Part shown: in pieces, positions 6,696 through 53,802 of the stretch
Layout: each line of letters starts with the position of its first letter
How positions within the stretch are numbered: the stretch's first letter is position 1
Assembly (NCBI GenBank): GCA_910588235.1
Contig: CAJUOQ010000008.1
Location: 476 to 64,475 of the forward strand
DNA from: an uncultured Atopostipes sp.
GTDB taxonomy: Bacteria > Bacillota > Bacilli > Lactobacillales > Carnobacteriaceae_A
Direction of reading: 5' to 3'
DNA: 64,000 nucleotides
The notes under the pieces: model-generated
Told to the model about the DNA's origin: nothing
The model's database searches: none
What the model saw: only the letters and a program-made list of their open reading frames with translations
Position numbers and translations under genes: made by a program

Positions 6696-6860
6696 GTTCT
6701 TAATGAATTGAATATCCAAACATTACCGAAGACAGTATGTGGCAATCGCCTTAATTTCATACCGAGGAGATGTTGTTAGATAAGTTTATGCAAATAATCT
6801 TATTATAAAAACATTTAACACTCCCTTATGTCCTCGGTGACTAAGGGAGTTTTTTAATTT
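6696..6860 (+). promoter_or_regulatory. L10(L12) ribosomal-protein leader with terminator
   Basis: A ~165-nt leader upstream of rplJ ends in the hairpin ctcccttatgtcctcggtgactaagggag plus TTTTTT (6822-6856). This position and architecture match the Firmicute L10 leader (Rfam L10_leader class), recognised from memory and not scanned. Confidence 0.7.
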
Positions 6861-6892
6861 AGGGCTAAAACAAGCTTCAGGAGGTGACGTTC

Positions 6893-41993: not shown

Positions 41994-42085
41994 TATTCGT
42001 TCGAACTGAATAATACAATGACTCACTTTTTATGATGTATGGAGAGCGTTATGATGATGGATTATTCCAAGTGTCTAGCTCTAGT

Positions 42086-42113
42086 TTCTCCTGGGAGCTA
42101 ACTCCCGGGAGAA
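42086..42113. other. Strong GC-rich hairpin after rplQ with no U-tract
   Basis: 12-bp stem ttctcctgggag / ctcccgggagaa with loop ctaa. There is no T-run on either strand. Confidence 0.5.
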
Positions 42114-45599: not shown

Positions 45600-45766
45600 T
45601 GGTATTGTTTACCACCATGATAAGCCCCGGAACTTATTATGTGAAAAACAGTAAAATTATACGATGAATTTAAATAATGAATGAAATTAATTTTATTTTT
45701 TTCTTTCGGAACAAAGATTAAAATAAATAATAAAAGATTCAAGAATTTATTTTGGAGGGAAAACTA
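45600..45766 (+). promoter_or_regulatory. L13 ribosomal-protein leader (candidate)
   Basis: A ~165-nt leader precedes rplM, with the hairpin catgataag-ccccggaa-cttattatg. The position matches the Firmicute L13 leader class. It was not scanned with a covariance model. Confidence 0.5.
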
Positions 45767-49930: not shown

Positions 49931-50971
49931 TTATACAGTGACTTTTTCAATCCATCCTTCAGGTCCTTCTAAATCTCCAAATTGAATAGAAGTTAAGGTG
50001 TCATACAATTTCTTTGTAAGGGGGCCAACTTCTGTTTCAGAATGAAAAACATGGAAATTATCTTGCGTTTGGATCCCACCGATAGGAGAGATAACCGCTG
50101 CTGTTCCACAAGCACCCGCTTCTTTAAATTCATCTAAACGATCTAAATAAATATCGCGCTCTTCAACGCCTAACCCTAAATAATGTTCGGCTAAATAGAG
50201 GAGAGAATACTTTGTGATACTAGGTAAAATAGAAGGAGAGTCTGGTGTCACAAACACATCCTCGTGCGTAATTCCGAAAAAGTTTGCGGCCCCGACTTCT
50301 TCAATTTTTGTATGTGTAGCAGGGTCTAAATAAATGCAATCACTGAATTCTCGCTCTTGTGCTTGTTTTCCAGGGAGTAAACTAGCGGCATAGTTGCCAC
50401 CGACTTTAGAAGCGCCTGTTCCATAAGGAGCTGCCCGGTCGTAACCTGAAACGATAAAGTTCGTAGGGGCGAGTCCACCTTTGAAATAAGGGCCAACGGG
50501 GGTTACAAAAACCGAAAAGATATATTCTTCTGCAGGTTTGACCCCAATATTATCACCCACCCCGATCATGTATGGGCGAATATAAAGAGTACTCCCCGAC
50601 TCATAAGGAGGAACCCAATGGGCATTCGCAGCCACAACTTTTTCCACCGCATCAACAAATCTTTCGACCGGGAAAACAGGCATTAACAGGCGTTCGCAAC
50701 TTCGGGCAAGACGTTTCGCATTTTCTTTAGGTCGGAATAATTGAATATCTCCCTCTTTTGTTCGATAAGCTTTCATTCCTTCAAAACTTGCTTGCCCATA
50801 GTGTAAGGCAGGTGAACCTTCGCTAATCGTTAACTTATTTTCAGTGGATAATTTTCCCTCATCCCAAGCACCATTTTTCCAATGAGAGATAAAACGATAA
50901 TCTGTTTTGATATATGAGAATCCGAGATTACTCCAGTCTAAATCGACTGTTTTATTTTTTGCTTTTTCCAT
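49931..50971 (-). CDS. ilvE: Branched-chain amino acid aminotransferase (class IV PLP fold)
   Basis: 346 aa with ..[16 protein letters not shown].. and ..[15 protein letters not shown].., typical of IlvE/BcaT. Confidence 0.92.
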
Positions 50972-50998: not shown

Positions 50999-52024
50999 TT
51001 AATTGACGGCTAAAGCCATATCGCCTGTACCGATTTTCTTTCTAGCATAAAGAACTTTATTGACGGCTAACGTAATGATGACGGGCAGAATAGCTCCACA
51101 TAATAGATAAACACCAAAACCAATCCAACCGTTGCTATTGATCACATACAAGGGAGCAACGAAAGAACAAAAGCCCATTCCACCCATTTCAGGAACGGTA
51201 GTAAAACCAAAAACCATCGTTGCGATAGGTGCGGCAATTGCAGAAGAAATGGTCGGGCCAATTAAAAGAGCAGGATTTTTAATAATATTTGGTAGCTGTA
51301 CTTTAGGAGTACATAAAACCTGAGCTAAGAAACCACCAATATCATTTTCTTTAGCAGATACAACAGCAAAGGCGAAAAACTGTGCCGTTGTTCCAATTAA
51401 CATTGCCCCACTAGAAACGGGATCGAGGGCTAAGGCAACAGCTAAAGCAGCAGAAGACGCGGGAGACATCAGTAACAAACCCCAAACGACGGCTAAGATC
51501 ATTGAACCAATTAGAGGACTGCCTGCGACCGCATCAGAAATGGCTGTACTGATCACAATCAAGAAAGGGGTCATGACTCTTTCAAGTAAAATACCCGCCG
51601 TTCCTCCGACCAGTAAAGCAGCAACAGGAACAGCCATCATATCAAGTGGTGTTTTCCCTGTGACTTTTTTGCCGATAAAAGTGGCTATGACACCCGCTAA
51701 TAAAGCACCAATAGGTTCACCGCCGACAATACTTAAAGCGCCATCCGCTCCGGCTTGAATGGCTCCACCACCGAGCGAAGCAGCGACCATTGCACTAAAA
51801 ATAGTTAATGTATTACTGTTTAACATGACAGCAATCCCGGCCCCTAATGCAGGCGCTAATAATACTTTAGCGACACCGCCAATGGTCATTAATAATGGAA
51901 GTTGGAACATTTCACCGATTGTTTCTAAGAGAAAACCTACACCAATAGTTAAAAAGATGGCATTCGCGACGCCGGATGAGGCCTTCAATATTTTTTCTTT
52001 TGTACTTTCTGCTGACTTCTTCAT
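50999..52024 (-). CDS. Polytopic membrane protein, PTS_EIIC_2 / PfoR-like family (putative transporter)
   Basis: 341 aa, Gly/Ala-rich and multi-TM, with a ..GGEPIGALLAG.. motif. The family name is from memory and is tentative. It is separated from ilvE by 27 nt, so co-transcription is likely. Confidence 0.7.
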   Translation of the reverse strand: MKKSAESTKEKILKASSGVANAIFLTIGVGFLLETIGEMFQLPLLMTIGGVAKVLLAPALGAGIAVMLNSNTLTIFSAMVAASLGGGAIQAGADGALSIVGGEPIGALLAGVIATFIGKKVTGKTPLDMMAVPVAALLVGGTAGILLERVMTPFLIVISTAISDAVAGSPLIGSMILAVVWGLLLMSPASSAALAVALALDPVSSGAMLIGTTAQFFAFAVVSAKENDIGGFLAQVLCTPKVQLPNIIKNPALLIGPTISSAIAAPIATMVFGFTTVPEMGGMGFCSFVAPLYVINSNGWIGFGVYLLCGAILPVIITLAVNKVLYARKKIGTGDMALAVN

Positions 52025-52076
52025 ATTTTCCCTCCTGTTTAATCTCTTTACCTGAACCTAGACTCATTATTTTGGA

Positions 52077-52150
52077 TAAAAAAATAAGCCCTCGTAATAA
52101 CGAGTGGCTCATTTGAAGAGAAGAGCCACTAACACAAATAGGACTCTTCT
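52077..52150 (-). terminator. Attenuator: three overlapping hairpins ending in an intrinsic terminator
   Basis: Minus strand: agaagagtcc/ggctcttct (52150-52119), agtggctc/gagccact (52130-52103), and gccactcg-ttatta-cgagggc plus TTATTTTTTT (52108-52077). Confidence 0.7.
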
Positions 52151-52176
52151 TTTTGCTGGTGGGCAAAGATAGAATC

Positions 52177-52269
52177 CTAAGGCTCGACTAAAATAATGAC
52201 TAAAAGGGGAGACGAAAATGTCTGCTGATGGTTATAAAACTTCATTGTCATTTTTTTAATTTTATTCAT
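52177..52269 (-). CDS. Candidate leader peptide with a Leu/Val/Ile run (30 aa)
   Basis: Not in the track. ATG lies 8 nt after aaaggagg. Translation is MNKIKKMTMKFYNHQQTFSSPLLVIILVEP followed by a TAG stop. Confidence 0.6.
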   Translation of the reverse strand: MNKIKKMTMKFYNHQQTFSSPLLVIILVEP

Positions 52270-52308
52270 TTTCGCTGCCTCCTTTTACTTGGTTTAGGTA
52301 ATGGAATC

Positions 52309-52337
52309 ATTATATAGACCGTATGAGAAGAAGTCAA
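52309..52337 (-). promoter_or_regulatory. Near-consensus promoter for the leader / membrane protein / ilvE unit
   Basis: Minus strand: TTGACT, 17-nt spacer, TATAAT. Confidence 0.8.
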
Positions 52338-52429: not shown

Positions 52430-52458
52430 TTGACATACTCATTATCCGATGTTATTCT
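52430..52458 (+). promoter_or_regulatory. Divergent promoter for the Fe-ADH leader
   Basis: TTGACA, 17-nt spacer, TATTCT. Confidence 0.65.
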
Positions 52459-52491
52459 TTCATCAATTATTTTATAAAAAGGATGTAAAAA

Positions 52492-52545
52492 ATGAAAAGA
52501 CTATTCAGCCAAGCGATTATTATTCTTATTAAGAAGAGGATTTAG
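52492..52545 (+). CDS. Candidate leader peptide with an Ile-rich run (17 aa)
   Basis: Not in the track. ATG lies 8 nt after aagga. Translation is MKRLFSQAIIILIKKRI, and the stop is embedded in the first leader hairpin. Confidence 0.45.
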   Translation: MKRLFSQAIIILIKKRI

Positions 52546-52630
52546 ACACTGTATTTAATTTTACAGTTGTTTAAATCCTTTTCATGCTTGATTCGCTGAA
52601 TGGGATTTAAAGCCCCATTCAATTGAATGA
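52537..52630 (+). terminator. Attenuator: alternative hairpins ending in a strong intrinsic terminator
   Basis: aggattta/taaatcct (52537-52579). ttaaatcc can alternatively pair with ggatttaa (52593-52600). gaatggg/cccattc (52588-52610). The terminator aaagccccattcaa/ttgaatgagggcttt plus TTTTTT spans 52599-52630. Confidence 0.7.
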
Positions 52631-52734
52631 GGGCTTTTTTACTTCTTTTAAAGATCAAACTGAAAATCACAAACAACAAAGTCCAGTCTTAACTGAAGTT
52701 ACGGAACATTCATAAAAAGAAAGAAGGAATTATT

Positions 52735-53802
52735 ATGCGTTTAAGTCAAGTCGTTCGTCCAGGGCCGGGTCAATTTCTGAGTGAGGTCGGTGCCTTAAAA
52801 TATCTAGATGAGAAGTTAGCTGCCTTTGATCAACCCGTATTGATTACGGGTGAGTTATCTTTTGCGGCATTTCAAAAACATTATCCAGGTTCGTTGGAAT
52901 TACCTGTTTTTCATTATGATGGAACAGCTTCACATGAGGATATGGAGCGACTCTCTAAACAAGTCAAAGGCACAGATTGTATTATCGGTGTCGGGGGAGG
53001 GCGAGTCTTAGATACGGCAAAAGGGACTGCCGACTTATTAAATGTGGAACATATTACGATTCCTACAGTACTAGGCACTTGTGCAGCTTATACTCCTTTA
53101 TCAGCTGTTTATCATTCCGATCATACATTTAACGAAGTGGACTATTATGAAAAAGCCCCTTTACTTTGCCTGATGGATTTAGACTTATTGGTAGCGTCTC
53201 CGAAGAAATATTTTATGGGTGGCATCGGAGACACGCTAGCAAAATGGTATGAAGCCGAAGGGATCACGCGCCATTTGGAAGGAGAACTTCCGGCAATGGT
53301 CCAAGTGGGTTTAAATACAGCGAGAGTGACGCAACAATTACTCTTAGCAGATAGTCAGGAAGCGTTAGCAAGCATGGAACGAAAAGAAGTGACCACAGCT
53401 TTCAAAAGAGTTGCGGAAGCTGTGGTTGCGATTGCTGGAACGGTGGGTGGTTTTGCCGGTGAATACGGGCGAATGGCAGGTGCTCACGCCATCCATAACG
53501 GTATGTCGCTCGTCTCTGAGACCCACGCTTATGAACATGGCATTAAAGTTTCTTACGGTGTGTTGGTCCAATTACTGGCCACGGGAGATCGAGAAGAAGT
53601 GGAACGATTACTGCCTTTTTATAAAGAAAATCATTTTCCTCATCGCTTAGCTGATTTTGGAATAGTGGATGATCTTCAAGAAAAAGCTCAACAGATTGCT
53701 GCTTTTGCTGCTGCAGACGATGAAACATTCAACTTGGTCGTTCCAAATATATCACCAGCTGTCGTTTATCATTCGATGGAGGAATTAGAACGACTGTCTT
53801 AA
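52735..53802 (+). CDS. Iron-containing (group III) alcohol dehydrogenase family protein, glycerol-dehydrogenase-like
   Basis: 355 aa with the motif GVGGGRVLDTAKG and a His cluster ..GAHAIHNGMS..THAYEHG.. Confidence 0.85.
   Translation: MRLSQVVRPGPGQFLSEVGALKYLDEKLAAFDQPVLITGELSFAAFQKHYPGSLELPVFHYDGTASHEDMERLSKQVKGTDCIIGVGGGRVLDTAKGTADLLNVEHITIPTVLGTCAAYTPLSAVYHSDHTFNEVDYYEKAPLLCLMDLDLLVASPKKYFMGGIGDTLAKWYEAEGITRHLEGELPAMVQVGLNTARVTQQLLLADSQEALASMERKEVTTAFKRVAEAVVAIAGTVGGFAGEYGRMAGAHAIHNGMSLVSETHAYEHGIKVSYGVLVQLLATGDREEVERLLPFYKENHFPHRLADFGIVDDLQEKAQQIAAFAAADDETFNLVVPNISPAVVYHSMEELERLS

What the first reader, a model, noticed from the sequence alone, without database searches (positions are those of the whole stretch)
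52077..52337. Textbook-style ribosome-mediated attenuator with an LLVIILV leader peptide upstream of the membrane-protein/ilvE operon
On the minus strand there is a near-consensus promoter (TTGACT-17-TATAAT) and a strong SD (aaaggagg, 8-nt spacing). They are followed by a 30-codon mini-ORF, MNKIKKMTMKFYNHQQTFSSPLLVIILVEP, whose end has seven consecutive Leu/Val/Ile codons (CTT TTA GTC ATT ATT TTA GTC). About 25 nt after its stop come three mutually exclusive hairpins: 1:2 agaagagtcc/ggctcttct, 2:3 agtggctc/gagccact, and 3:4 gccactcg/cgagggc plus TTATTTTTTT. The last ends about 52 nt before the operon start codon. This is the architecture of enterobacterial ilv/leu/trp leader-peptide attenuation. 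BCAA genes in Firmicutes are mostly described as under T-box and/or CodY control, so a translation-coupled BCAA sensor here is unusual.
Basis: partly seen in the sequence, partly recalled or inferred. Interest (0 to 1): 0.65.

Follow-up and report, generated by a model that had tools for sequence, protein, structure and literature searches.

The report
Isoleucine/leucine leader-peptide transcription attenuator
A short upstream mini-gene packed with isoleucine/leucine/valine codons, followed by competing RNA hairpins and a terminator, very probably lets a translating ribosome switch on a transporter-plus-transaminase operon when these amino acids run short. The mechanism is a known kind, but this conserved family and its target genes appear undescribed.

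Summary

It is what couples ribosome position to the distant hairpins.

Comparative evidence is strong. 36 loci from about 15 genera of Bacilli have an SD+ATG mini-ORF whose last nine codons are 63% Ile/Leu/Val. Its stop lies -1 to +4 nt from the same conserved hairpin (AGGAYU...RAGUCC), followed by the same four mutually exclusive helices.

The same leader also precedes ilvD, a Liv-type ABC transporter operon and ilvE alone.

Folding with ribosome masks shows the antiterminator forms only when the A site is on the Ile/Leu/Val codons.

A second, divergent attenuator of the same design (52430-52640, + strand; MKRLFSQAIIILIKKRI) controls the neighbouring Fe-ADH-family gene.

Leader-peptide attenuation of branched-chain amino acid (BCAA) genes is already proven in Firmicutes (Listeria Rli60, S. 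aureus), so the kind is known. Rli60 is the best, sub-threshold, Rfam match.

New here are the family and its targets. These imply a BCAA-related role for the uncharacterised PF13303 EIIC-like transporter. No expression data were obtainable.

The parts
52309..52337 (-). Sigma-70-type promoter: TTGACT (52337-52332), 17-nt spacer, TATAAT (52314-52309). The transcription start is predicted near 52302.
   Evidence: 11 of 12 consensus positions, the best site in the region. The transcription start is inferred, not measured.
52278..52285 (-). Shine-Dalgarno sequence aaaggagg of the leader ORF, 8 nt before the ATG.
   Evidence: All 36 related leaders have an SD-like sequence before an ATG.
52177..52269 (-). 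Leader ORF of 30 codons plus TAG: MNKIKKMTMKFYNHQQTFSSPLLVIILVEP.
   Evidence: Equivalent ORFs of 16-37 codons occur in 36 loci.
52186..52206 (-). Regulatory codons L22 L23 V24 I25 I26 L27 V28 (CTT TTA GTC ATT ATT TTA GTC).
   Evidence: In the family the last nine codons are 63% ILV, against 22% in the rest of the peptide and 25-26% in the other two frames. With the ribosome A site on codons 21-27 the antiterminator is predicted to form.
52181..52185 (-). Segment A: GAGCC (codons E29-P30), complementary to GGCUC of segment C. It sequesters C when no ribosome covers it.
   Evidence: This pairing is in the MFE structure of the full leader. The A:C duplex is -9.7 kcal/mol, p = 0.01 against shuffles. 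A comparable AGCC(C) occurs in 71% of 24 distinct class I leaders.
52139..52179 (-). Hairpin 1 (A':B), the sensor or relay hairpin. It begins with the stop codon: UAGGAUUCU-A-UCUUUGC...GCA-AA-AAGAAGAGUCCUA. Its base, AGGAUUC/GAGUCCU, is invariant in the family, and it is followed by UAUUU.
   Evidence: RNAalifold and the covariance model show an invariant lower stem and a covarying upper stem. The stop-to-hairpin distance is -1 to +4 nt in 36 loci.
52119..52150 (-).
   Evidence: It forms in silico when the ribosome covers A', that is with the A site on V28 through the stop. Across the family B:C gives z = -3.1 against shuffles, with p < 0.05 in 83% of loci. It is 94-100% paired in class I and 96.5% in class II.
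52103..52130 (-).
   Evidence: About 7.3 antiterminator pairs are expected with the A site on codons 21-27, falling to 0-2 from V28 onward. The core is 82-100% paired in class I. Class II shows the compensatory change GGCAC:GUGCC.
52078..52114 (-). Intrinsic terminator D:E. The stem is AAAUGAGCC-A-CUCGU / ACGAG-GGCUUAUUU (52114-52082) and the U7 run is 52084-52078.
   Evidence: -17.4 kcal/mol. 13 of the 21 pairs in the family consensus (hairpin 1 plus terminator) show compensatory changes, and most terminator-stem pairs are among them.
50999..52024 (-). First regulated gene: a 341-aa membrane protein of Pfam PTS_EIIC_2 (PF13303), with no EIIA or EIIB partner nearby.
   Evidence: E = 9e-81. The AlphaFold model has pLDDT 76.8 and best matches E. 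coli PtsG IIC (8qsr_A, TM 0.60).
49931..50971 (-). Second regulated gene: ilvE, branched-chain amino acid aminotransferase.
   Evidence: NF009897, 487 bits. ilvE follows the EIIC_2 gene in 13 of the related loci.
52430..52640 (+). Second, divergent attenuator of the same design.
- Promoter: TTGACA-17-(TG)TATTCT at 52430-52458.
- ORF: 52492-52545, MKRLFSQAIIILIKKRI*.
- Hairpin 1: 52533-52583, with the stop codon inside its 5' arm.
- B:C: 52570-52611.
- Antiterminator: 52597-52604 paired with 52614-52621.
- Terminator with U run: 52609-52640.
- Controlled gene: the Fe-ADH-family gene at 52735-53802.
   Evidence: (z = -5.8), which shows the antiterminator only with the A site on I9-I13. The region scores 28.2 bits against Rfam rli60 and 22 bits against model R1. 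The leader is conserved in Carnobacterium, Marinilactibacillus and Oceanobacillus.

Best explanation
This is a ribosome-mediated (leader-peptide) transcription attenuator that senses charged tRNA for Ile and Leu, and Val to a lesser extent. It controls the operon PF13303 EIIC-like transporter + ilvE.

Proposed mechanism. The sequence elements are shown; the dynamics are inferred.

Transcription starts near 52302 and the 30-codon ORF is translated. The downstream RNA has five segments:
- A: GAGCC at the ORF end.
- A': the 5' arm of hairpin 1, which starts at the stop codon.
- B: the 3' arm of hairpin 1, ...AGAGUCCU.
- C: GUGGCUC.
- D and E: the two arms of the terminator.

C can pair with A, with B or with D.

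1. BCAA shortage. The ribosome stalls with its A site on codons L22-L27. It covers A but leaves hairpin A':B intact, so C has no upstream partner. C pairs with D to form the antiterminator, and RNA polymerase reads through into the operon.

2. BCAA sufficiency. The ribosome runs to the stop codon and unwinds A'. B is freed and captures C as soon as C is made, so D pairs with E and transcription terminates at the U7 run.

3. No ribosome. A:C plus A':B sequester C, and termination again follows. This predicts super-attenuation for start-codon mutants.

The conserved hairpin 1 followed by UAUUU may also act as a polymerase pause that synchronises transcription with translation. This is speculative.

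Physiological reading (inferred): Ile/Leu starvation induces an importer and the transaminase, so that BCAAs or their 2-keto acids can be taken up and converted.
For: Anatomy in the window.

Conservation of the ORF as an ORF.
- 36 loci from Jeotgalibaca, Atopococcus, Vagococcus, Marinilactibacillus, Alkalibacterium, Dolosigranulum, Carnobacterium, Desemzia, Sporolactobacillus, Niallia, Oceanobacillus, Peribacillus, Ectobacillus and Bacillus spp. have an SD+ATG ORF of 16-37 codons.
- The N-terminal parts are unrelated in sequence and length, while the C-terminal ILV run is kept.
- ILV fraction is 0.63 in the last nine codons, 0.22 in the rest of the peptide and 0.25-0.26 in the other frames.

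Geometry. The stop codon lies -1 to +4 nt from hairpin 1 in all 36 loci.

Switch in silico.
- Window: 7.3-7.5 expected antiterminator pairs with the A site on codons 21-27, 2.1 on V28, and 0 from E29 to the stop.
- Second attenuator: the same behaviour, with the switch exactly at the end of the I9-I13 run.
- Mean over the 36 loci: a fall from 7.9 to 5.1 pairs at the stop.

Helices.
- B:C complementarity gives z = -3.1 against shuffles and always overlaps the C segment used by C:D.
- 91-97% of cells are paired, against 23-50% when the partner is slid.
- Compensatory events: a G/C co-deletion in B:C, and GGCGC:GCGCC changing to GGCAC:GUGCC in C:D, both in Niallia; and compensatory changes in the upper stem of hairpin 1 and in the terminator.

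Functional coherence. The same leader sits upstream of ilvD, a Liv-type ABC transporter operon, ilvE alone and EIIC_2 genes in metagenome contigs.

Precedent. Listeria Rli60 is an experimentally proven attenuator of this kind in which start-codon and RBS mutants super-attenuate (PMC5864092). It is the best Rfam match for the window leader and for a class II leader. The alignment runs over the Ile/Leu codons, the stop, the AGGAYU hairpin and GUCCUAUUU.
Against: - No expression data. RNA-run contigs that hold only the leader (X25, X27, X28) were selected by leader k-mers, so they are biased. An unbiased look in Dolosigranulum shows no leader-only pattern.
- Equilibrium folding of the full-length leader always favours the terminator, whatever the ribosome position. 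The switch therefore has to be kinetic.
- In about a third of relatives (for example L003, L006, L010, L017) the equilibrium model of the truncated transcript shows no drop in antiterminator pairing at the stop codon.
- The cores of B:C and C:D are almost invariant. Covariation statistics are therefore weak: shuffle controls are not significant.
- The near-invariance of AGGAYU/RAGUCCU is more than alternative pairing strictly needs and could point to an additional trans-acting factor.
- The transcription start is unmeasured.
Confidence: 0.85

Rival explanations
1. The conserved hairpin (AGGAUUC...GAGUCCUAUUU) is the binding site of a trans-acting factor, either an RNA-binding protein or a small-molecule ligand, and that factor is the real BCAA sensor. 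On this view the mini-ORF is incidental or only modulatory.
For: The lower stem of hairpin 1 and the C element are nearly invariant in primary sequence across families of Bacilli and across unrelated downstream genes. Such invariance is typical of factor-binding RNA. Covariation in the B:C and C:D cores is minimal.
Against: - The ORF is kept open, with SD and ATG, in 36 of 36 loci, although its N-terminal sequence and length drift freely.
- ILV enrichment is specific to the reading frame and to the last codons.
- The stop codon is locked to within 5 nt of the hairpin.
- The invariance has a simpler explanation. C must pair with three partners (A, B, D) and B with two (A', C), which constrains all of them.
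- No Rfam riboswitch or protein-binding leader matches.
Confidence: 0.06
2. The mini-ORF encodes a functional small hydrophobic peptide, for example a membrane-inserted regulator or subunit of the transporter, and the hairpins are an ordinary leader or terminator with no coupling to translation.
For: The peptide has a hydrophobic C-terminus and lies next to a membrane-protein gene.
Against: - The hydrophobic run is only 5-8 residues, too short for a membrane helix.
- The rest of the peptide is not conserved.
- The same type of ORF precedes genes for soluble enzymes: ilvD, ilvE and the Fe-ADH family gene.
- A strong terminator sits between the ORF and the operon, with an overlapping antiterminator.
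Confidence: 0.03
3. The element is a tRNA-dependent (T-box-like) antiterminator or another known riboswitch class.
For: T-boxes are the usual amino-acid sensors for such genes in Firmicutes. T-boxes occur elsewhere in two of the fetched loci.
Against: No T-box or other riboswitch match was found, even at E <= 10 in a 1-kb search of the leader. Excluding the ORF, the leader is only about 100 nt, and no specifier-loop or T-box sequence is present.
Confidence: 0.01
4. The ORF, hairpins and terminator coincide by chance in an AT-rich intergenic region.
For: Runs of 7 or more ILV codons occur nine times in the six frames of the window. Promoter-like and terminator-like sites are common in this region.
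Against: The whole arrangement is conserved over about 15 genera and across several operon types. A covariance model built from relatives scores the window element at 68.7 bits, E about 1e-12.
Confidence: 0.01

Closest known systems
Listeria monocytogenes Rli60 (Rfam RF02414), the ribosome-mediated attenuator of the ilv-leu operon (PMC5864092)
   Same: - Same phylum, same signal (BCAA) and same logic: a short BCAA-rich leader peptide, overlapping antiterminator and terminator hairpins, and super-attenuation without translation.
- rli60 is the top Rfam match in the minus-strand leader (23.1 bits), in the second, plus-strand attenuator (28.2 bits) and in a class II relative (23.7 bits).
- The alignment runs over ...AUUAUUUUA(Ile/Leu codons)-stop-AGGAYU...hairpin...GUCCUAUUU.
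- The stem arms in the Rfam consensus, AGGaCUugaAc / gUUUaaGuCCU, are nearly those of class II (AGGACUGAAAC / GUUUGAGUCC).
   Different: - Scores are far below the gathering threshold of 60 bits.
- An ilvD-linked class I leader (L091) gives no rli60 hit at all, so homology is suggestive, not shown.
- Rli60 has a 13-aa peptide, is also repressed by CodY, and controls biosynthetic genes.
- The window element has a 30-aa peptide and no CodY box within 3 mismatches. It controls a transporter plus a transaminase.
Staphylococcus aureus ilvD leader (Ile/Leu-rich 26-aa attenuator peptide; PMC5794164)
   Same: It is a Firmicute with a leader peptide holding a run of Ile and Leu codons, a conserved terminator and an alternative antiterminator fold. 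Ile and Leu are the dominant regulatory residues, as in this family (99 Ile, 81 Leu and 24 Val in the tails).
   Different: It controls the ilv-leu biosynthetic operon. Its antiterminator is proposed to pair with the poly-U tail.
Enterobacterial trp, his, leu and ilvGMEDA attenuators, and the three-hairpin model of Corynebacterium glutamicum ilvBNC (PMC11857589)
   Same: The principle is the same: the position of the ribosome on regulatory codons chooses between an antiterminator and an intrinsic terminator. Multi-helix relays (A:B, B:C, C:D...) like the one here are also used by the his leader (my own knowledge).
   Different: Here the regulatory codons lie upstream of all the helices. A hairpin that starts at the stop codon acts as the relay: a terminating ribosome melts it to release an anti-antiterminator. 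C is also captured by a short segment at the ORF end when no ribosome is present. There is no sequence relationship; Rfam leader families do not match.
T-box leaders and CodY repression, the usual BCAA controls in Firmicutes
   Same: They carry the same physiological signal, and they control the same gene families in other taxa. CodY-like boxes lie upstream of the EIIC_2 and Fe-ADH orthologues in Bacillaceae and Gemella.
   Different: The mechanism is different. There is no T-box match and no CodY box near the window promoters.

Membership tests
Ribosome-mediated (leader-peptide) transcription attenuator | Short ORF with its own translation signals in the 5' leader of the regulated operon | tested here: met
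   aaaggagg-8 nt-ATG and a 30-codon ORF. An SD+ATG ORF is present in 36 of 36 related leaders.
Ribosome-mediated (leader-peptide) transcription attenuator | Cluster of codons for the amino acid(s) related to the regulated genes, conserved as codons rather than as peptide sequence | tested here: met
   LLVIILV in the window. In the family the tail is 63% ILV, against 22% in the rest of the peptide and 25% in the other frames. The N-terminal parts are unrelated.
Ribosome-mediated (leader-peptide) transcription attenuator | Intrinsic terminator between the leader ORF and the first structural gene | tested here: met
   A 14-bp stem (13 bp in the full-leader MFE) plus U7 at 52114-52078, -17.4 kcal/mol. 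A terminator is present in all relatives and shows compensatory changes.
Ribosome-mediated (leader-peptide) transcription attenuator | Antiterminator mutually exclusive with the terminator, plus upstream segment(s) that can sequester it | tested here: met
   C:D, B:C, A':B and A:C share nucleotides.
Ribosome-mediated (leader-peptide) transcription attenuator | Geometry such that a ribosome stalled on the regulatory codons favours the antiterminator and a ribosome at the stop favours the terminator | tested here: met
   Constrained folding with a 13-nt downstream footprint gives a sharp switch at the end of the ILV run in both window attenuators. The stop-to-hairpin distance is -1 to +4 nt. This is an in silico test only.
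Ribosome-mediated (leader-peptide) transcription attenuator | Read-through responds to supply of the amino acid and depends on leader translation | not testable with these tools
   Only assembled contigs of public RNA runs were available, and they are uninformative.
Rfam RF02414 rli60 | Covariance-model score at or above the gathering threshold (60 bits) | tested here: not met
   23.1 bits for the finding, 28.2 bits for the second attenuator, 23.7 bits for L026 and no hit for L091. The element is therefore not filed as a member. It works like Rli60 and may be a distant relative.
Rfam RF02414 rli60 | Location upstream of ilvD (ilv-leu operon) | tested here: not met
   The window element precedes EIIC_2-ilvE. 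However, class I leaders of the same family precede ilvD in seven metagenome contigs.
T-box leader (RF00230) | T-box covariance-model match, with specifier loop and T-box sequence | tested here: not met
   No match at gathering score over the window and none at E <= 10 in the 1-kb region.

The most novel reading that the evidence does not exclude
Two linked proposals.

1. The leader belongs to an undescribed, Bacilli-wide family of Ile/Leu leader-peptide attenuators, possibly including Listeria Rli60. The family is built around an invariant stop-codon hairpin (AGGAYU...RAGUCCUAUUU) that serves as a dedicated ribosome-arrival sensor and perhaps a polymerase pause.

2. The family's regulon reveals an unrecognised branched-chain salvage route.
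- The orphan PF13303 EIIC-like protein and an SBF-like carrier would import BCAAs or branched-chain 2-keto/2-hydroxy acids.
- The Fe-ADH-family enzyme would oxidise 2-hydroxy acids to 2-keto acids.
- IlvE would aminate the 2-keto acids to Ile, Leu and Val.
Probability: 0.3. Interest if true: 0.65.

Novelty: new member of a known kind. Interest (0 to 1): 0.5.

Why it matters
The mechanism itself is classical and already proven in Firmicutes, so it does not change how attenuation is understood. The value lies in what the leader marks.

- A conserved, easily recognised Ile/Leu-sensing module is absent from Rfam 15 at threshold. It tags a set of genes as BCAA-responsive in Carnobacteriaceae, Vagococcus, Bacillaceae and Sporolactobacillaceae.
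- That set includes two uncharacterised transporter families (PF13303 'PTS_EIIC_2' and an SBF-like carrier) and an Fe-ADH-family dehydrogenase. This gives them a testable functional assignment in BCAA or branched-chain keto/hydroxy-acid uptake and conversion.
- The element is a clean natural example of a relay design in which the antiterminator strand is free only for one narrow range of ribosome positions.
- Two such switches sit back to back and control divergent operons.

Tried and rejected
- Equilibrium folding of the full leader with ribosome masks. The terminator is always favoured, so the test does not discriminate.
- 'Fraction of terminator 5'-arm nucleotides paired' as a read-out. It was confounded by a small local hairpin in the arm. 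I replaced it with pairing to upstream nucleotides.
- Covariation statistics on class II. All four helices are 91-97% paired, but shuffle controls are not significant because the columns are nearly invariant.
- RNA evidence. Three RNA(?) runs contain only the leader out of 20 kb of the window, but they had been selected by leader k-mers. A less biased query in Dolosigranulum showed no leader-only pattern, and one contig spanned the terminator. I judged this inconclusive.
- Rfam membership. Nothing reaches gathering score. rli60 matches are weak and absent for L091.
- CodY operator. None within 3 mismatches near either window promoter.
- Fe-ADH gene next to the EIIC_2 operon in relatives. Not found in any fetched locus, so the back-to-back arrangement is specific to this genome.
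- Literature. No paper in the held library links PF13303 or these leaders to BCAA control.
- The A:C pairing as a universal feature. It holds in only about 71% of class I leaders.
Full report
**1.

On the minus strand the window has the following elements.
- Promoter: TTGACT (52337-52332), 17-nt spacer, TATAAT (52314-52309). It is the best promoter-like site in the region, matching 11 of 12 positions.
- Shine-Dalgarno: aaaggagg, 8 nt before an ATG.
- ORF: 30 codons at 52269-52177, MNKIKKMTMKFYNHQQTFSSPLLVIILVEP. Seven consecutive Leu/Val/Ile codons lie at 52206-52186.
- Terminator: 52114-52082 with a U7 run at 52084-52078. The U run ends 53 nt before the operon's ATG at 52024.

The leader folds much better than shuffled sequence (z = -4.9).

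The downstream genes are a 341-aa PTS_EIIC_2 (PF13303) membrane protein and a branched-chain aminotransferase, IlvE. The EIIC_2 protein is 78% identical to that of Jeotgalibaca caeni. The source is therefore probably a Jeotgalibaca-like member of Carnobacteriaceae. Public runs holding the sequence are largely mouse-gut metagenomes.

An ILV run alone is weak evidence: nine runs of 7 or more occur in the six frames of the window.

**2.

The RNA directly after the ORF forms a 41-nt hairpin (52179-52139) whose first base is the U of the stop codon.

This matters for the mechanism. The stop-codon hairpin is the relay.

**3. Comparative evidence**

I aligned EIIC_2 homologues and fetched 80 genomic loci.

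In 36 of the 81 (the window plus 35 of the 80 loci) there is an SD+ATG mini-ORF of 16-37 codons upstream of the gene. The genera are Jeotgalibaca, Atopococcus, Vagococcus, Marinilactibacillus, Alkalibacterium, Dolosigranulum, Carnobacterium, Desemzia, Sporolactobacillus, Niallia, Oceanobacillus, Peribacillus, Ectobacillus and Bacillus spp.
- The N-terminal part of the peptide is unrelated from genus to genus.
- ILV residues make up 63% of the last nine codons. They make up 22% of the rest of the peptide and 25-26% of the other two frames of the same nucleotides. The tail counts are Ile 99, Leu 81 and Val 24.
- In all 36 the stop codon lies -1 to +4 nt from a conserved hairpin.

ilvE follows the transporter gene in Jeotgalibaca, Atopococcus, Vagococcus, Marinilactibacillus and Alkalibacterium. 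It does not in Dolosigranulum, Carnobacterium or Desemzia. The leader therefore belongs primarily to the transporter gene.

**4. RNA architecture**

Two sequence classes share one design.
- Class I (Carnobacteriaceae, Vagococcus): stop-(A)GCC(C)-AGGAUUC[variable stem-loop]GAGUCCUAUU...GGGCUC...(N)AGCC[terminator].
- Class II (Bacillaceae, Sporolactobacillus): stop-AGGACUGRAAC[stem-loop]GUUUGAGUCC...GGCGCUCAAGCAA...AGCGCCYAUCC[terminator].

RNAalifold on class I finds hairpin 1 and the terminator. 13 of the 21 pairs show compensatory changes, while the base of hairpin 1 is invariant.

A covariance model built from class I scores the window element at 68.7 bits. It finds no other strong copy in the window.

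The strand C (GGGCUC, or GUGGCUC in the window) is complementary to three elements.
- B, the 3' arm of hairpin 1. B:C is 94-100% paired in class I and 96.5% in class II. It gives z = -3.1 against shuffles, with p < 0.05 in 83% of loci.
- D, the 5' arm of the terminator. The core is 82-100% paired and the helix is 92% paired in class II.
- In most class I leaders, a short AGCC(C) at the ORF end (A). ΔG is -5 kcal/mol or better in 71% of them, and -9.7 kcal/mol in the window.

The C nucleotides used by B:C and by C:D overlap in every locus.

Because these cores hardly vary, formal covariation is weak and shuffle controls are not significant. There are still informative events.
- Niallia has lost one G in B and the matching C in C.
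- Niallia has changed GGCGC:GCGCC to GGCAC:GUGCC, with a G-U intermediate.
- Vagococcus uses a different C:D pair, AAUGGG:CCCAUU (my reading).
- Class I and class II keep all four helices with different sequences.

**5. How it most likely works**

I folded the transcript truncated just before the terminator's 3' arm, holding unpaired everything up to 13 nt beyond the first base of the A-site codon.
- A site on codons 21-27 (P L L V I I L): hairpin 1 stands, and C pairs with D as AGUGGCUC:GAGCCACU. Between 7.3 and 7.5 antiterminator pairs are expected.
- A site on V28: 2.1 pairs.
- A site from E29 to the stop: 0 pairs. The 5' arm of hairpin 1 is covered, so B is free and captures C, leaving D free for the terminator.

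Without a ribosome, the full-length MFE has GAGCC:GGCUC plus hairpin 1 plus the terminator.

C is thus available for antitermination only when a ribosome covers A but not A'. That happens only when it sits on the Ile/Leu/Val codons.

Across the 36 loci the mean falls from 7.9 to 5.1 pairs at the stop codon. About a third of the loci show no equilibrium effect, and full-length equilibrium folding always favours the terminator. The decision must therefore be kinetic, as in classical attenuators. This step is inferred.

The invariant hairpin followed by UAUUU could also be a polymerase pause site. This is a speculation.

**6. Regulon**

I scanned metagenome contigs with the class I motif and obtained 16 loci, one of them a chance hit. 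The covariance model recognises the other 15 (50.9-95.7 bits). The same leader precedes several kinds of gene.
- ilvD: L081, L085, L086, L089, L091, L092 and L096, with peptide ...NTLLVIIMP.
- A Liv-type ABC transporter operon (Peripla_BP_6 plus a BCAA permease component): L082, L084, L087, L094 and L095, with peptides ...LLVIIIIT and ...LLLIIIP.
- ilvE alone: L093.
- EIIC_2 with or without ilvE: L083 and L090.

This ties the leader to BCAA metabolism independently of the window. It also implies a BCAA-related role for the uncharacterised PF13303 protein.
- Its model (pLDDT 76.8) has the glucose-type EIIC fold: best match PtsG IIC, TM 0.60.
- No EIIA or EIIB gene lies beside it.
- CodY-like boxes lie upstream of homologues in Bacillaceae. 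None lies near the window promoters.

**7. A second attenuator in the same intergenic region**

On the plus strand the following elements precede the Fe-ADH-family gene at 52735-53802 (fold z = -5.8).
- Promoter: TTGACA-17-TG-n-TATTCT at 52430-52458.
- An AAGGA Shine-Dalgarno sequence.
- A 17-codon ORF at 52492-52545, MKRLFSQAIIILIKKRI.
- A hairpin at 52533-52583 that contains the stop codon in its 5' arm (AGGAUUUAG).
- A B:C helix at 52570-52611.
- An antiterminator, UGAAUGGG:CCCAUUCA.
- A terminator with its U run at 52609-52640.

Ribosome-mask folding gives the antiterminator only with the A site on I9-I13. The region is the best rli60 match in the window (28.2 bits), and R1 also hits it weakly.

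Orthologues of this dehydrogenase carry the same kind of leader.
- Carnobacterium viridans: MTYSFNQTAIIIRIRI.
- Marinilactibacillus kalidii: MLIPSSLLFIIQLRT, as the second gene of an SBF_like (PF13593) transporter operon.
- Oceanobacillus piezotolerans: MNTHAHQTRLNNNIIIIS, in the same operon arrangement.
- Gemella has CodY-like boxes instead of a leader.

**8. Comparison with what is known**

Leader-peptide attenuation of BCAA biosynthetic operons is experimentally established in Listeria (Rli60, PMC5864092) and in S. aureus (PMC5794164). It is predicted in Lactococcus, Streptococcus and Corynebacterium (PMC6123439, PMC11857589). A histidine leader peptide in bacilli was reported in 2010 (PMC2965389).

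Rli60 is the closest described element.
- Its Rfam consensus aligns with the leaders over the Ile/Leu codons, the stop, the AGGAYU hairpin and GUCCUAUUU.
- Scores are 23-28 bits against a threshold of 60, and one ilvD-linked leader gives no hit.
- I therefore do not file the element as a member of RF02414.

No T-box or riboswitch matches. In the held literature I found nothing that links these leaders, or PF13303, to BCAA control.

**9. Limits**

There are no usable expression data.
- Leader-only contigs in three RNA(?) runs are biased by how the runs were found.
- A less biased check in Dolosigranulum was negative or uninformative.
- The transcription start, translation of the ORF and the response to BCAA supply are all unmeasured.

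**10. Verdict**

This is a real, conserved leader-peptide attenuator that senses Ile and Leu, and Val to a lesser extent (confidence 0.85). It is a new member or family of a known kind, of moderate interest. The interest comes mainly from the regulon it exposes and from the paired, divergent switches.

Noticed in passing
window 52430-52640 (+), upstream of the gene at 52735-53802: A second leader-peptide attenuator of the same design, divergent from the finding. Its ORF is MKRLFSQAIIILIKKRI (52492-52545), the stop codon lies inside the conserved hairpin, and it has an antiterminator and a terminator with a U run. It controls an Fe-ADH-family oxidoreductase. The ORF is too short (17 aa) to appear in the ORF list at 25 aa.
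   Followed up: yes
L098 2237-2400; L099 1329-1480; L100 1228-1400; L101 2317-2503: Orthologues of the Fe-ADH-family gene carry Ile-rich leaders in Carnobacterium viridans. In Marinilactibacillus kalidii and Oceanobacillus piezotolerans they do so as the second gene of an SBF_like (PF13593) transporter operon. Gemella has no leader but two CodY-like boxes. This suggests a BCAA-linked transporter and dehydrogenase pair of unknown substrate.
   Followed up: partly
L081, L085, L086, L089, L091, L092, L096 (ilvD); L082, L084, L087, L094, L095 (Liv-type ABC operon); L093 (ilvE): The same class I leader (AGGAUUC...GAGUCCUAUU...GGGCUC) precedes ilvD, a BCAA ABC transporter operon and ilvE alone in metagenome contigs. 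The module therefore defines a regulon rather than a single operon.
   Followed up: partly
L036, L043, L045, L047, L052, L054, L057, L074, L077 (Sporolactobacillus leaders); also L098 and window 52492-52545: Arg codons are interleaved with the Ile/Leu codons (LIRIILRLRT, AIIIRIRI, IIILIKKRI). I could not tell whether they are regulatory codons, for example rare CGA/CGC, or are kept for RNA pairing (UUGCGCUUGCGC; AGG AUU UAG forms the hairpin arm).
   Followed up: no
L021-L080, upstream 450 nt of the EIIC_2 homologues: CodY-box-like sequences (2 or fewer mismatches to AATTTTCWGAAAATT) occur in 16 of 80 loci, mostly Bacillaceae, both with and without the leader. None lies near the window's promoters within 3 mismatches.
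   Followed up: partly
window 6708-6865 (+), 45601-45654 (+), 42043-42111 (+): Rfam matches at gathering score to the ribosomal protein L10 leader, the L13 leader and the L17 downstream element. These are ordinary features of ribosomal-protein operons.
   Followed up: no
window 52056-52305 in runs X25, X27, X28: In three RNA(?) runs the only contigs matching the 44-64 kb part of the window cover the leader: 52110-52305, 52056-52227 and 52206-52292. One contig ends 3 nt upstream of the predicted transcription start. This is suggestive of an abundant terminated leader RNA, but the runs were found by leader k-mers, so the result is biased.
   Followed up: partly
L004 1700-1875 (MAG labelled Erysipelotrichaceae): The EIIC_2 homologue (70% identity) has a leader ORF, MDTSKFNAFVDTSTIVVLIL, and a terminator. 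It lacks the AGGAUUC arm, though GUGUCCUAUUUG is kept. It scores only 19 bits with the class I model, so it is a divergent variant.
   Followed up: no
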